From: Abditibacteriaceae bacterium
GTDB taxonomy: Bacteria > Armatimonadota > Abditibacteriia > Abditibacteriales > Abditibacteriaceae
Direction of reading: 5' to 3'
Assembly: GCA_031372065.1 (NCBI GenBank)
Contig: JANMKN010000273.1
Location: 1 to 63,430 of the forward strand
Length of the DNA stretch: 63,430 nucleotides
Shown piece after piece: positions 36,801 through 45,800 of this stretch. How positions within the stretch are numbered: position 1 is the first letter of the stretch; every line of letters starts with the position of its first letter. The position numbers were made by a program.

Positions 36801-39800
36801 CTCGCGCTCGTCTTTGGAAAGTTTGCGCGGCTTGCCTGTTGCAGCGTCCATTTCGACGTTGCCTGCGCGGTTTGCTTGCCCTTCTTTGATATCGAAAAGG
36901 CGTTGGCGCAGCGGGTTTAGATTGGCACGAAAATCTTCGCCTTTGGTGCGCTCGATTTGTGCCGCTTGTAAAGTAACGCGCCGCGCTTCGTCGCGCAACG
37001 ATTCGATTTCGCTTTTTAACGTTGAAGTTTGCTCGTGCATGGCCGAAATCGTGGCGTGTGCGGCTTGAAATTCTTCGCTGCGCGTTGTCCATGCGCCGCC
37101 AAAACTGCGCGACAAAAACGCCAATAATTCGCGCGGCGAGCGACAATTTTTCAAATCGGCGCGCAAAGCGTCTTGCGACTCGCAAACATCACTCCAACGC
37201 GCCGCGAATTCACCGGCGGGCAGCGATTTCTGACCAAAGGCGCTTTCCAAGTGCGGCGGCAAATCGAATACGGCGCGCGTTTGCGATAGGGCGTCCCACG
37301 TCGCATATTTGAGGCGCAGCATCGGATGCAAATCCAATTCGAGGCCTGCTTCCCGCAAGGCATCGTTCATTTTCTGCGTGCGCGGCGTGTAGCTGGAGGC
37401 TTTTTCGTGAAACACGAAAATAAATTCCTTCGCCAGCATCGAGATCAGCGAAACCGCTTTGCCAACTAAAACGACATCCGCGCCGAAATTGCTTTCGAGA
37501 ATTTCCGCCAATTGCCCGACGTTTTCACAGTTTGTTTGCAGGACGCGGCGCGGTTCGGTGTCAATCGAAAGCGTGCCTTCCTGCAAATGCAAGGTGCCGC
37601 GCCCGTGACCGGGAATAACCACATCAAAGGGCAACGCGCCGGGGCCAAATTGGTCGAGCGTGTAAATGCCGCTGCCGCGCACTGCGTCGTTGTAACAGCG
37701 CGCGGCGATTTCGCGCGTGGCCGGATTCAAAAACAAATCCACAAATTCAAAACGCGGCAACTGACAGGTTTCGCGGTTGAATTTAAAAAGGCGCAGCGAC
37801 GTGCTGGTGGTGAGATTACACGAGCCGGTGCCGCGCACCATCGCCCACAAGCGCGGCGTCAGCCAACGATAAAAATCCGACAACGTGCCATCGGGGTCTT
37901 GATTCAAATAATCGCGCGTCCAGCCAAAAATCTGGTTGGCATTTTCGCGCGCCATTTTCGCGCACGCCTCGCAAACGCCGTTGTCATTGGTCCACGCGAT
38001 TTGCAGGCTCAAATTGATGGCCCATTCAATTTGCCCCACCAAAGATGGCCCCATATCGCGCAATTTCACATCGCCGGCAATCATCGAACGCGCCGAGGTT
38101 TGCACCAAGGCACGCCAGCCCCACGCGTTGGTTTCTGCATTTAATAAGGCCTCGGCGCCACCGGGATAATCGCGCGCCACGCGGTCAAATTCCACGCCGT
38201 TTTCGGTCAAAAGATGGCGCGACGGCACGATTTCGCTGCCGAACAAGCAGGAAATTTCGCCCGCCGCGCTCCACAGGCCGCGTGTGTCACCGTCGTTGTG
38301 CGAGAGTAAGGCGAATTTCTCGCGGCGTTGCGCTTCGCCCTCGAAGTGCGACAATTTGGCGAAGTAATCGGTATCGTGAACCGCAGCCATCATCACGGCA
38401 TCGGGCGCGACGACTTCCAAAATGCGACAAAAAGCGGCTTTGACAGGCTCATCCCATAAAGCGGTTTGGCCCAAAGTAAGAAACGGCGTTTGCGGAAAGC
38501 GTTTGCGCAATTCTTGAATCGCGGACGCAGAAGAATGAAGATCAGGCATTTTTAAGCTCAATTAAGCCTTTAGTTAAGCAAATTGGAGAGTAAAACGTAA
38601 AAAAACGTCGCGCCCATGACGATTTAATGTTTCTCCGGCGCCCTTTTTGAAAAAGATTTAGTAATTACCCAAGTTGCCAAGAATGCCTGACCTCAAAACC
38701 ACCGTCCCCAGCGTAGGGGACGGTGGTTTTGCTTTGGGCTATGCCTTACCTTTCGCAGGTATAGCTCTACCTTTTGAAGGTAGAAGCCAACCTTTTACAG
38801 GTAGAAGCTAACCTTTTGTAGGTAACCCAACAGGTAGAAGCTAACCTTTTGTAGGTAACCCAAGTTGTTCCCTGCCTACTGAAAGACAGATGGCTGTAAA
38901 AAGGGCGATGTCTCGTTTGGAAGAGTTAGCCGGTTCCCTTCCTGTTGTTCTGACCTTCAACGCGTTAAGCGCTTAATTTGGCTCACGCCGTTTTGCCGTG
39001 GCATTTTTTGAACTTCTTGCCACTGCCGCACGGGCATGGATCGTTGCGGCCAACACCAGCGAATTTGGGGTCAACTTTCGCGGCGTTGGCATTGGTTTGA
39101 GTCTGCGGCGCCGGGCCACTGCGCGTTACAGCAGGATTCGACGGACGCGTGGCGGGCGCTGATGAAATTGGTGCCGCTTGGCGTTGCGTTTCGCGTTGTG
39201 CTTCGCGCTGTGGCGGGCCGCTCATCATGCCTGCGGGCACAACTTCGCCGCTTTCGTCATCCAAACTGCCATCGCCGTCCGCGAATTCCATTGGCAAAGT
39301 GGTGGTGATGCGGTCTTCCTGCATTCCAAACAAATCGGGGCCGGCATACATTTGTGGTGTTGGTGCGCCGATGTCGGCGTCGAAGATGCCTTCGGCGACT
39401 TCCTTGCGAATTTCGCCCAGCATCTTATGGAACAAGGAGTGGCCTTCCTGACGATACACATGAACCGGGTCTTTTTGAGCGTAGCCTTCTTGCCAGATGG
39501 CATCGCGCAAATAGTCCATTTCGGCCAAATGCTCCATCCAATGATCGTCAATCGAACGCGTCACTTGCCAGCGTTCGAGAGAACGCATGGTTTCTTCGCC
39601 GACTAATTTTTCGCGATCTTGATAAAGCTCTGCAACCACGCCATAAAGTGTGCGGCCATCCTGCAAGCGCGCATCAAAATCGGCTTGCCCCAGAGCAATT
39701 TCGGGCAAATCGAAATACTGCATATCTTCCAAATCAGCGGCTCTCAAATGCTTATGCAGCAAACTGGCGCCGAAGATTTTGGCGTAGTTTGCATACAACT

Positions 39801-42800: not shown

Positions 42801-45800
42801 CGTCGTCGGTGATAATCTCCGATGAAATCAGCGAATCGAGAAAGTTGTCCGGGTCGGTAAAGGCCGGGCTACCCGCTTCGCGTTCGGCGATGAGCGTGCC
42901 CATGTCGGTCAGCGAGGCCTGACGGCGCTTTTCGTCTTTGTCAGCGAACCAGCCGAGGCTGATGACCATGCGCTTGTAATCTTCAAACTGCGTGACCTGA
43001 AAACTGCGCTCCAGCAAACGCCAAATTTGACGCTCCAACTGCTCGGCACTGCGATTGGTGAAATCCGCTGCTTTGATTTTGTTTTGCGTTTCTTTGGCAA
43101 GTGGAATGCGGCGCTTGATTTCTTCGACGAAAGCAGGCGCGTTTTCTTCAGTCAAAAGCGGCTCCAAGTGACGATTGACGGCATCGGCGGCGAGTTCGGC
43201 GAAAATCGCGTGCTGCAAAAGTCCTTTGATTGGCTTGTTGAGCAAATCGGCGATGGAATATTCCGCATCGGACGACATTTCCAAAATCGCGCTGACATTC
43301 TTGATGAGTTCCGCGTTTTGCCGGGCTTTGAATTCGTCCCACGCAGTGCCCCATTCTTCGAGGGAAGCGGCAAAAGCGGCCGCTTCGGGCGCGGCCAAAA
43401 GCTGGTGGCTGACAAACGCTTCAAAGCCCGTTGAATAAGTGCCTTCCTGAATTGCTTCGCGGATGGATTGCGTGTTTTCGTCGGGCAGTTGAACTGCTTC
43501 TTGAATGCGATGCGCCAGCAAATCGGCGTTTTCGATGCGCCAATCTTGCAACTGGCGTGCGGCTTCGCCCACTAAGGCGGGCAGTTCGGTGTTTTCGCCG
43601 GGTAAGTCGCGCACGGCCAACAAAATGCGCTCGTTTAGTTGCTCGCGCGTGCCGCCTTCGTTCATCATTTCGGCAATGGCACGCTTGGCATCGCGCGGCA
43701 CTTCGACCCATTGCTCTAATTCTTCGACGAGGCGCCCGGCGCTCTCATCGTGGGCGCGTTTTTGATCGGCGGCAAACTGCTTGGCGGCTTTATAGGCTTC
43801 CGCGAGCGCGCCGCTTTTGGTCAGTTCATTTTGCAAGGCGCGCGAGAGTTCATCGGCGTCCTCGCCGCTGGCGGCCCGCTTGGCAATCGTTTCGTGACCG
43901 TGCAATTTCAAGCGCAGCGAATCGGCTTCTTTTTTAAGAAATATTTCGCGCTCATCGTCATATTTTTCGGCAAGCCCGGCAATTTTCTGCGCCACATCGC
44001 CCGGATGCTGAACGATGGCTTGCGCGATTTCTTTGCGCAAACCGTCGCGGCCTTGCGTGAGTCGAACCTGCTCCCACAACTTCTCGCTCATCTCGAAAGG
44101 CAGCAGGCCGCGCAGCGAAATTTGCTCCAAAGCACCAATCACATCGCGCACTTGCGCGGGCGATAATGTATCGCTATCGGGCACCGCTTCGAGCAGCAAA
44201 GTTTCGGCTTCATGCGCGCCACCGGGCACTTCCAGCACGATTTCAATTAAAGCGGGCAACAAGGCGGCTTGGTAGATTTCGAGCGCGCGGCCTACATTTT
44301 CGGGCCGCTCGAATCCAACTAAAGCGGCCTGAATCATCTCCGTCGCGCTTTCCTCCACAATGCCGCGCCGCGCGATTTCTTGCGCCACCAAACGCGCCGC
44401 ATCGGCGTTTTCGTCATCCAATTCAGCATAAACATCGGGCGAAAGGCCCAAATCAGCGGCCAAACGCATCGCATCGAAGCCCAGCACACTGGCGTTGGCA
44501 TAAGCTGCCGCGAATGGTTCCAGCAAATGGCTGATTTCGCGCTGCCACGCGGCGCTGAGTCCGCGTGGGCGCACGGCGTTGGTGGCGATATTTTCGAGTT
44601 GCGCTTTGCCGCCATCGCTAATAAGGCCATCGTTTTTGAATTCGTCGGCCACGTCTAACAAATGCGCGGCGTTTTCGATGCGCGCGCTTTTTTCGCTGAT
44701 AAGATAAGCGTCAATCAAGTAAGAAATCGCTTGGCGGAAGGCACCACGTTTTTCGATTTCGGCCAAAAGCGCGCCGATGTCAATGCGCCCTTTGCTGGAC
44801 AGCATATCCAGCATATTTTCCACTTCGCGCTCGGTGATGGCGGGCATCATTTTGCGCGCGAGGCCGTCGCAAGTTTGCGCCATCGTTTGGCGGCGCAGGG
44901 CGCGTTCGGTTTTAGCAACCTGCGCCGAAATAATCAGCGGCGTGCGCGCTTCGTCAATGAGAATGTTGTCAACTTCGTCCACAATGGCGAAGTTGAGCGG
45001 GCGCTGCACCATGTCTTCGGGCGTGCGCGCCATGTTATCACGCAGATAATCGAAGCCGACCTCCGAGTTCGTCGCGTAGAGAATATCGGAATTATAAGCC
45101 GCCTGACGCGCCTCATTTTCCATGTCGTTGGTCAAAAACGCCACGGTTAAACCGAGAAATTCGTGAATGGGCCGCATCCAGTTGGCATCGCGCTCGGCCA
45201 AGTAATCGTTGACCGTGATGACATGAACGCCGCGTCCGGTAAGCGCGTTGAGATAACACGGCAGCGTGGCAACAAGAGTTTTGCCTTCGCCAGTGCGCAT
45301 TTCGGCGATGCGTCCCGAATGCAGAACCGCGCCGCCAATAAGCTGCACATCGAAGTGGCGCAGGCCAATAGCGCGATCACCGGCCTCGCGCACAAGAGCG
45401 AAGGCCTCGGAAATGACCTCGTTCAAAACCGCTTTTTCGGCATCGCGGCGCGCTCGAACATAGTCGTCGCTCCACGACATTTCGGTGTCGAGTTCCTGCC
45501 AACCATAGGCTTCGCCGGTTTTGGGGTCTTTCTGCGCGCCAAGGCGCTGCGTGATGCTTTCGCGCACCTTCTTTTTCAGCGTTTGGGAGCGCGCTTTGAG
45601 TTCTTCGTCCGACAAGGCTTTGAGTTCAGGGCCAAGGCGGTTCACTTCGTCCACGATGGGCCGAATTTTGGCGACTTCTTTTTCGTTGCGATCAATAAGT
45701 TTGGACAAAGCGCCCGCAATGCCCGACGATTGTTCGCCCGGCGTTTCGGCGCGCTTGCCGAAAAGATTTTGTAACAGTGACATGGAAACTCCTAACAATT

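What a model noticed while it worked through the whole genome (the two positions that open the first line are those of the whole stretch)
38983..45783. The only SecA is a 2266-aa giant with two folded, lineage-specific insertions (730 aa and 460 aa)
The sole SecA translocase ATPase of this genome (g04394) is 2266 aa, more than twice the usual 900-1100 aa. All canonical SecA domains are present and colinear, but are split by a ~730-aa all-helical insertion between NBD1 and the preprotein cross-linking domain (residues ~299-1026) and a ~460-aa alpha/beta insertion inside NBD2 (residues ~1370-1830). Both insertions are conserved in length and sequence in every Abditibacteriaceae genome sampled, are predicted to fold, and resemble no solved structure, so they are functional additions to an essential motor rather than junk or inteins.
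Evidence so far: Pfam rows place SecA_DEAD at 28-298 and 1064-1133, SecA_PP_bind 1027-1090, P-loop_SecA 1150-1207, 1275-1369 and 1831-1893, SecA_SW 1907-2135, SEC-C 2246-2264; no second SecA and no Hint/intein domain in the genome; it is the largest within-domain insertion in the genome. search_genomes over 61 Armatimonadota: all 6 Abditibacteriaceae (two of them in 1-2 contigs) have one uninterrupted 2242-2338-aa frame matching end to end (54-75% identity); most other families have frames of about 980-1220 aa; one other family (4 genomes) has 2494-2608-aa frames. Within the family insertion 1 is 44-72% and insertion 2 42-66% identical, against 67-87% for the core domains. AlphaFold2 on 6-sequence alignments [...]
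(Added by a program. Inside this text positions count along the whole contig: contig position 1 is position 1 of the stretch shown here. "Call 12" and the like, gene names such as g00115 and contig names such as C1 are that model's own, and its searches are not shown. The text may have been shortened before it was handed on; [...] marks where a part breaks off. The agent that wrote the report below was given it as the finding of a first reader that could run no searches.)

Follow-up and report, generated by a model that had tools for sequence, protein, structure and literature searches.

The report
Giant SecA grown by self-duplication
The only protein-export motor (SecA) of this bacterial class is 2.5 times the usual size because it carries large extra folded domains, partly copied from its own parts, on both jaws of its substrate clamp; what the extras do is untested.

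Summary
Real. One 2266-aa frame encodes the sole housekeeping SecA, with its motor motifs present. Both insertions occur in 31 of 31 genomes of the class, not only the family, and are under purifying selection. Insertion 1 lies inside the PPXD: about 620 aa of about eight helical repeats (the last resembles SecA's own wing domain), then the retained PPXD hairpin, then a 50-aa four-helix module. Insertion 2 (about 490 aa) sits at the known variable (VAR) site. It is a degenerate tandem copy of NBD2, without the ATP-contacting arginines, carrying four acidic winged-helix-like repeats. A third 83-aa insert, at the site known from Thermus SecA, was missed. So the inserts are not wholly unlike known structures. 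Unrelated 2000-2600-aa SecAs arose in other lineages by wing-domain expansion. Best reading: an ordinary motor with non-catalytic appendages that tune clamp and ATPase cycling in cis (inferred; about 0.45 for the role, about 0.9 for the architecture). Six literature searches found no description. This scan already noted it on another genome (e1-5297257).

The parts
38983..45783 (-). secA, 2266 aa, sole housekeeping SecA
   Evidence: an AGGAG lies just upstream of the ATG and homologues start at the same MSLL
44956..45783 (-). NBD1 (residues 1-276) with Walker A at 165 and DEVD at 269
44845..44955 (-). PPXD stem strand and first helix (277-313)
42982..44844 (-). insertion 1a (about 314-934): about eight degenerate 60-90-aa all-helical repeats inside the PPXD, net acidic
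   Evidence: self-matches E 4e-10 to 1e-8 at offsets 176 and 88; units 5-7 vs unit 8 E 1.8e-7; model; charge
42997..43203 (-). last repeat of insertion 1a (861-929), resembling SecA's helical wing domain
   Evidence: profile E 8e-5 to 5e-4, score 31-33 against shuffled maxima 16-21 and reversed 15-19
42829..42981 (-). retained PPXD hairpin and helix (935-985, DEK...LTD.G)
   Evidence: match to normal-size PPXD E 4e-6, reversed 0.1
42673..42852 (-). insertion 1b (about 978-1037): four-helix module, MshEN_N-like in shape, no RLG motif, invariant RRRR patch, as conserved as the core
   Evidence: 5htl Z 6.9, rmsd 3.0, 59 aligned; alignment; dN/dS 0.02-0.16
41929..42177 (-). 83-aa NBD2 insert (1203-1285) at the site of the Thermus 76-aa insert; also in normal-size SecAs of the phylum
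   Evidence: alignment to 2IPC; lengths; PMC7023208 passages
41773..42297 (-). catalytic NBD2 segment 1163-1337, parent of the duplication
40294..41772 (-). insertion 2 (about 1338-1830) at the VAR site
41314..41766 (-). pseudo-NBD2 head (1340-1490), diverged copy of 1163-1296
   Evidence: hhalign P 97.5, E 6e-12, score 86 vs shuffled max 20.8; HMMER second hit E 7.6e-9 at 41866-42294
40393..41214 (-). four winged-helix-like repeats (1524-1797), acidic, conserved Trp, no conserved Lys/Arg
   Evidence: pairwise E 1e-7 to 5e-4; top VIA rows are winged helices at Z 4-5.7
40309..40368 (-). pseudo-NBD2 tail (1807-1825), probable copy of motif V with Arg replaced by Gln
   Evidence: 8 of 19 identical; not significant alone (score 18.2 vs shuffled max 19.1)
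39379..40293 (-). rest of NBD2 with motif VI, scaffold, wing domain and two-helix finger (1831-2135)
38992..39048 (-). SEC-C metal-binding tail
   Evidence: present in 19 of 65 giants
45930..46400 (-). upstream ORF (156 aa) with signal-like N-terminus and family-conserved C-terminal motif; candidate SecM-like arrest peptide
   Evidence: untested

Best explanation
This is the housekeeping SecA. It drives export through SecYEG by the normal NBD1/NBD2 ATPase cycle, PPXD clamp and two-helix finger (shown at the level of motifs). In the ancestor of the class, surface loops grew mainly by internal duplication: a tandem copy of the NBD2 segment 1163-1337 at the VAR site, later filled with winged-helix-like repeats (shown for the head, probable for the tail), and a helical repeat array inside the PPXD whose last unit probably comes from the wing domain (moderately supported). 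The extras are non-catalytic (inferred from lost arginines). Their most likely role is to tune the motor in cis: insertion 2 is a hugely enlarged VAR subdomain that modulates ATPase/ADP release and clamp closure, and insertion 1 rides on the swinging PPXD as a steric arm that biases its resting position (both inferred, not shown). Architecture and origin about 0.9; this role about 0.45.
For: Sole SecA: one SecA_DEAD match at E<=1e-60 in each of 149 of 151 phylum genomes; above the cut-offs of TIGR00963 (864.6/800) and NF009538 (920.4/814), below all four SecA2 cut-offs. Walker A, DEVD, motif IV, LNAK, TNMAGRG and motif VI in 65 of 65 giants, finger motif in 64 of 65. SecY, SecD/F and trigger factor present and of ordinary frame size in 5 of 5 genomes. 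Duplication; the insertion-2 model aligns to Thermus SecA 2ipc_B (Z 4.5, rmsd 8.6, 151 aligned). The copy keeps the Thr, Gly and Asp of motif V but has Gln for Arg and no motif VI; motif VI holds the ATP-contacting Q521/R525/R528 of B. subtilis SecA (PMC9926265). The site is the one where E. coli has the variable subdomain 'proposed to regulate its activity' (PMC6620043). The PPXD swings between wing domain and NBD2 (PMC5963308), so both inserts sit on clamp jaws. Purifying selection and vertical descent.
Against: No experiment or expression data. The regulatory role rests on analogy with a 29-aa E. coli subdomain whose primary paper I could not read. The models were folded as separate pieces, so the position of the inserts relative to the motor is unknown. 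The tail of the NBD2 copy is not significant alone, and the 2ipc match includes about 25 genuine flanking residues. Repeats 5-7 match the wing domain only at E 0.013-0.019 and repeats 1-3 not at all; no SecA chain is listed in the fold searches of the insertion-1 model. The clamp C-loop Arg (B. subtilis R322) is His1074 in this protein, although Arg in at least 90% of 25 aligned giants and His also in two normal-size SecAs. One family (f40) lacks two of the four winged-helix repeats.
Confidence: 0.45

Rival explanations
1. Entrenched neutral expansion: permissive surface loops grew by slippage or duplication, and the inserts are conserved only because they must fold and now stabilise the core; no new function.
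For: Giant SecAs arose repeatedly at different sites with unrelated repeats; inserts evolve about twice as fast as the core; repeat number differs between families; no relatives of the inserts outside SecA.
Against: Length is nearly fixed across the class (insertion 1a 609-664 aa in the alignment of 65 proteins); insertion 1b and the pseudo-NBD2 tail are as conserved as the core, with invariant charged residues; 1200 extra residues were kept in 31 of 31 genomes.
Confidence: 0.25
2. Built-in holdase: the acidic helical array on the PPXD and the repeats on NBD2 form a cradle that keeps preproteins unfolded, doing the job of SecB.
For: Insertion 1 is grafted on the preprotein-contacting domain; SecB was found in only 1 of 46 phylum genomes, none of 4 in this family; both arrays are acidic.
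Against: SecB is equally missing in relatives with normal-size SecA; trigger factor is present; no exposed hydrophobic surface could be checked.
Confidence: 0.15
3. Docking platforms for a partner in trans (ribosome, anionic membrane, a lineage-specific protein).
For: Invariant basic patches in insertion 1b (R1025-R1028, K1033) and in the NBD2 copy; winged helices often bind proteins (own knowledge); many family members lack the SEC-C tail (19 of 65 have it), and PMC6620043 suggests large core loops could act like the tail.
Against: No partner gene is conserved next to secA except a small upstream ORF; this protein has both inserts and SEC-C.
Confidence: 0.2
4. Insertion 1b is an MshEN-type c-di-GMP sensor that gates the clamp.
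For: Three MshE/PilF/PilB N-domains align to model residues 702-761 (Z 6.9, 6.3, 6.2); spacing fits the 24-residue motif and two basal members keep FGE.L..xG.
Against: RLG is absent from both halves in 65 of 65; the conserved Gly is Leu in most, and G11L abolishes binding in MshEN (PMC5013675); profile match only E 0.009-0.02; Z under 8 is common for helical bundles.
Confidence: 0.04
5. The winged-helix repeats bind RNA or DNA (for example secA mRNA).
For: Winged-helix fold matches.
Against: Net charge -7 to -12 per 100 aa and no Lys/Arg conserved at 95% in 312 positions.
Confidence: 0.04
6. Inteins, mobile elements or an assembly artefact.
For: Size alone.
Against: No Hint match, no splice-type residues at the edges, GC like the core, same frame in genomes of 1-3 contigs, 31 of 31 class genomes.
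Confidence: 0.01

Closest known systems
Canonical SecA (B. subtilis 1M6N/1TF2, E. coli 2FSF)
   Same: All domains, order and motor motifs.
   Different: About 1250 extra residues in four inserts; PPXD split twice; a second, non-catalytic NBD2 segment.
Thermus thermophilus SecA (2IPC) with the 76-aa NBD2 insert (PMC7023208)
   Same: Best PDB match (E 2e-203); insert at the same NBD2 site.
   Different: The paper calls that insert specific to Thermales and Hydrogenibacillus; here a same-site insert is in most SecAs of the phylum that I measured and is itself duplicated. No PPXD array or NBD2 copy in Thermus.
E. coli SecA variable (VAR) subdomain, residues about 519-547 (as cited in PMC6620043)
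   Same: Same site, between motif V and the following NBD2 strand.
   Different: About 490 aa against 29; made of an NBD2 copy plus winged-helix-like repeats.
Other giant SecAs found here: family f15 (2494-2608 aa) and a 2000-2230-aa group of which three carry an Anaerolineae label
   Same: Growth by internal repeat expansion.
   Different: Insert in the wing domain; f15 has about 20 copies of the wing domain itself; no similarity to insertions 1 or 2 (E>=0.04); separate clades.
MshEN_N four-helix domain (5HTL, 8PDK, 7LKM)
   Same: Similar predicted shape of insertion 1b.
   Different: No RLG ligand motif, no MshEN_C subdomain.

Membership tests
Housekeeping SecA | NBD1-PPXD-NBD2-HSD/HWD in order | tested here: met
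Housekeeping SecA | Walker A/B, motifs IV, V, VI and two-helix finger | tested here: met
   65 of 65 for six motifs, 64 of 65 for the finger; exact GMTGT in 37 of 65, the others not inspected
Housekeeping SecA | Score above curated equivalog cut-offs; sole copy | tested here: met
Housekeeping SecA | PPXD C-loop arginine (B. subtilis R322) | tested here: inconclusive
   His1074 here, Arg in at least 90% of 25 giants, His also in two normal SecAs
Housekeeping SecA | ATP-driven translocation through SecYEG | not testable with these tools
   needs biochemistry
Accessory SecA2 | Second paralogue scoring above a SecA2 model | tested here: not met
   below four SecA2 cut-offs, no other SecA
Intein | Hint domain and splice-site residues | tested here: not met
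VAR subdomain of SecA | Position after motif V in NBD2 | tested here: met
VAR subdomain of SecA | Regulates ATPase and ADP release | not testable with these tools
   known to me only from the title and citation of Das et al. 2012 in PMC6620043
MshEN c-di-GMP receptor (insertion 1b) | Four-helix MshEN_N fold / homology | tested here: inconclusive
   Z 6.2-6.9; profile E 0.009-0.02
MshEN c-di-GMP receptor (insertion 1b) | Two RLGxxL(V/I)xxG(I/L)xxxxLxxxLxxQ motifs | tested here: not met
Winged-helix nucleic-acid-binding domain (insertion 2 repeats) | Winged-helix fold | tested here: inconclusive
   most top rows are winged helices but Z only 4-5.7 on a 536-aa model
Winged-helix nucleic-acid-binding domain (insertion 2 repeats) | Conserved basic recognition surface | tested here: not met
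Sec-monitoring arrest peptide (upstream ORF) | Small unannotated ORF upstream of secA, N-terminal signal, conserved C-terminus, spacer over 30 aa (criteria of PMC10987492) | tested here: met
   signal peptide judged by eye
Sec-monitoring arrest peptide (upstream ORF) | Ribosome stalling | not testable with these tools
   needs toeprinting or in vitro translation

The most novel reading that the evidence does not exclude
The class evolved a self-regulating SecA in which copies of its own docking partners act as built-in decoys: a pseudo-NBD2 that keeps the clamp-facing motifs but not the ATP-facing arginines, and a wing-domain copy inside the PPXD, together parking the clamp until SecYEG or a preprotein releases it, while the repeat arrays form a substrate-holding cradle over the motor.
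Probability: 0.15. Interest if true: 0.85.

Novelty: new variant of a known kind. Interest (0 to 1): 0.62.

Why it matters
SecA is treated as a compact, tightly constrained motor whose PPXD must swing widely. A whole class runs on a 250-kDa version with 670 residues on that moving jaw and a second, dead NBD2 segment. This maps which surfaces must stay free on SecYEG and the ribosome, gives a natural test of the regulatory role proposed for the VAR site, and, with the independent wing-domain giants, shows that an essential machine is repeatedly enlarged from its own parts. The class appears to include a cultured member (own knowledge), so it is testable.

Tried and rejected
Foldseek on both models: nothing at E<=0.001. 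VIA on the insertion-1 model: mainly generic helical bundles for model residues 321-553, no SecA chain listed; other parts were barely tested. ESM Atlas: no usable hit for the repeats of insertion 2 or for insertion 1; this shows neither absence nor novelty. Pfam and PDB profile scans of the inserts: nothing convincing. Insertion-1 profile over 1.84 billion representatives: 17 hits; 16 score 61-908 bits and the five I read are giant SecAs or pieces of them, the 17th (P0068, E 2.6e-4) is a low-complexity protein that I treat as chance. Insertion-2 profile among 193-879-aa proteins: 3 hits, all apparently SecA fragments. The idea that insertion 1a is made of PPXD-bulb copies (lead from e1-4897617) was tested and not supported (best E 0.05-0.6). 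Insertion 1 vs insertion 2: best E 0.005, rejected. The 1580-aa frame of G026 is a normal SecA behind an open upstream frame. G162 has the gene in frameshifted pieces; whether this is sequencing error was not checked. No RNA holder listed. A prediction of contact between the two inserts could not be run, so that question is open. Rfam: no match in 36000-50000. The primary VAR paper is not in the library.
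Full report
Observation. The window holds one open frame at 38983-45783 on the minus strand; from the ATG it gives 2266 aa. 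An upstream TTG would give 2296 aa, but homologues start at the same MSLL and an AGGAG precedes the ATG. Pfam finds all SecA domains in order. It passes two housekeeping SecA cut-offs and no SecA2 cut-off, and it is the only SecA of the genome (94% complete). Contigs of run X1 tile the frame without differences, but X1 may be the source.

Distribution. 12 of 13 family genomes match end to end at 54-75% identity and the 13th is split over two contigs. Profiles of both inserts match 31 of 31 genomes of the class, in four families; the profiles were built from 21 of these, and G162 has the gene in frameshifted pieces. In a draw of 151 phylum genomes, 149 have exactly one strong SecA_DEAD match. 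Of the 135 outside the family, 130 have frames of at most 1294 aa (some cut by contig ends), four of family f15 have 2494-2608 aa, and one 1580-aa frame is a normal SecA behind an open upstream frame.

Core. In 65 non-redundant giants, Walker A, DEVD, DEARTPL, motif IV, LNAK, TNMAGRG and motif VI are present in 65 of 65 and the two-helix-finger motif in 64 of 65. The motif VI residues match Q521, R525 and R528 of B. subtilis SecA, which contact ATP (PMC9926265, passages). One exception: the clamp C-loop arginine is His1074 here, Arg in at least 90% of 25 giants, His also in two normal-size SecAs. SecY, SecD/F and trigger factor are present in 5 of 5 genomes tested; SecB in 1 of 46 phylum genomes.

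Insertion 1 is inside the PPXD. Pfam matches only positions 48-110 of the PPXD model. The missing hairpin is found at 935-985 (E 4e-6, reversed control 0.1). So the PPXD is opened twice. Insertion 1a (about 314-934) is all helical in the model (pLDDT 82.2, pTM 0.67, 25 rows) and self-similar (E 4e-10 at offset 176, 1e-8 at offset 88). I count about eight units; units 5-7 match unit 8 in register (E 1.8e-7; boundaries chosen by me). Unit 8 (861-929) matches the wing domain of normal SecAs (E 8e-5 to 5e-4; score 31-33 against shuffled maxima 16-21). Units 5-7 match it only at E 0.013-0.019, units 1-3 not at all, and no SecA chain appears in the fold searches. A wing-domain origin is therefore likely for the last unit and only possible for the rest. 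Insertion 1b (about 978-1037) aligns with three MshE/PilF/PilB N-domains (Z 6.9, 6.3, 6.2), which is within the range of chance for helical bundles; the RLG motif that binds c-di-GMP (PMC5013675, passages) is absent and the profile match is weak. It is as conserved as the core and carries an invariant RRRR.

Insertion 2 is a pseudo-NBD2. It begins right after [10 protein letters not shown], where E. coli has its variable subdomain (PMC6620043, passages). Residues 1340-1487 are a diverged copy of 1163-1296 of the same protein (hhalign probability 97.5, E 6e-12; score 86 against 20.8 for the best of 20 shuffles and 16.5 reversed). HMMER finds the same parent segment as second hit genome-wide (E 7.6e-9 in G000; such a second hit is listed for 27 of 31 genomes). 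The end of the insert resembles motif V (8 of 19 identical) but is not significant alone. The model (pLDDT 86.5, pTM 0.70) has strands where the copy predicts them and aligns to Thermus SecA (Z 4.5, rmsd 8.6, 151 aligned; about 25 real flank residues contribute). The copy has Gln for the motif V Arg and no motif VI, so it should be non-catalytic (inference). Between head and tail lie four mutually similar repeats (E 1e-7 to 5e-4); the top fold matches are nearly all winged helices at modest Z 4-5.7. They are acidic and have no conserved Lys or Arg. Family f40 lacks two of them.

A third insert (1203-1285) lies at the site of the Thermus 76-aa insert (PMC7023208, passages). The same site is long in 14 of the 15 full normal-size outgroup SecAs measured, the 15th not parsed, so it predates the giants and was copied with NBD2.

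Selection and descent. dN/dS is 0.11-0.28 for insertion 1a, 0.08-0.23 for the NBD2 copy, 0.07-0.33 for the repeats and 0.05-0.12 for the core in 11 pairs; a 12th pair was saturated. Pairwise distances follow the core (Spearman 0.84-0.89, about twice as large; pairs are not independent). No stand-alone relatives were found.

Giant SecAs recur. A normal SecA query found 303 proteins over 1722 aa at E<=1e-100 among 8000 scored candidates; I classified the 120 listed: 27 have this architecture and all match both inserts; 6 were placed in the wing domain; 86 have the extra length after NBD2 (the two I read, in the wing domain; three carry an Anaerolineae label); one has long inserts at the Thermus site and VAR. 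In f15 the insert is about 20 copies of the wing domain. None of the 93 others matches insertions 1 or 2 beyond parent segments. In a FastTree tree of 768 core columns from 49 sequences the three giant groups are separate clades with support 1.0, f15 nested among normal SecAs; the branch joining this class to the Anaerolineae-type group has support 0.59. Different sites and sequences point to independent origins.

How it most likely works. Shown: an intact-looking sole motor; folded, selected inserts; duplication origin of the insertion-2 head. Inferred: the PPXD swings from the wing domain to NBD2 to close the clamp (PMC5963308, passages), so the inserts sit on its two jaws. I favour tuning in cis (0.45): the pseudo-NBD2 as an enlarged VAR regulator and insertion 1 as a steric arm. 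Rivals: entrenched neutral growth (0.25), docking of a partner (0.2), built-in holdase (0.15), c-di-GMP or nucleic-acid sensing (0.04 each); these are not fully exclusive. Whether the two inserts touch is open.

Novelty. Searches of the open library (listings and abstract starts) showed no description of a giant SecA; subscription journals are not covered, and Das et al. 2012 is known to me only by title and citation. This scan already reported the same giant on another genome (e1-5297257; seen, after my duplication tests) and a different giant in KSB1 (e1-4897617). Verdict: a new variant of a known machine; interest 0.62.

Noticed in passing
window 45930-46400 (-): 156-aa ORF 146 nt upstream of secA: signal-like N-terminus, variable middle, C-terminal motif like L.xHEAAxLSG(I/V/T)RTN just before the stop, in 19 of 21 family loci (one miss holds no upstream DNA), 0 of 4 other class loci, 0 of 20 outgroup loci (most with short upstream DNA). 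Layout of a SecM-like arrest peptide without a RAPP motif; 'Abditibacter' does not occur in the secA-uORF table (file 9) of PMC10987492.
   Followed up: partly
L048-L052 (family f15): SecA of 2494-2608 aa with about 20 tandem copies of its own wing domain.
   Followed up: partly
P0070, P0079 and related proteins: Large group of 2000-2230-aa SecAs, some labelled Anaerolineae, with a 60-65-aa repeat array in the wing domain.
   Followed up: partly
P0143: 2009-aa SecA with long inserts at the Thermus site and at VAR (short Leu-rich repeats, MgtE_N hit), unrelated to insertion 2.
   Followed up: no
window 41929-42177 (-): The NBD2 insert described as specific to Thermales has a same-site counterpart across this phylum, so it is not confined to thermophiles.
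   Followed up: partly
window 38694-38862: Downstream of secA: two identical 33-nt direct repeats plus two degenerate copies, then a perfect 16-bp hairpin (terminator-like).
   Followed up: no
window 36402-38561 (-): 719-aa ORF after secA with no Pfam match and a C-terminal coiled-coil-like part.
   Followed up: no
G162:C12:519176-524656: The giant secA appears in several frameshifted pieces in this genome; probably sequencing errors, unchecked.
   Followed up: no
G000, G003, G019, G033: Each of the four family genomes has one MshEN (PF05157) match, against 2-10 in the 37 other phylum genomes.
   Followed up: no
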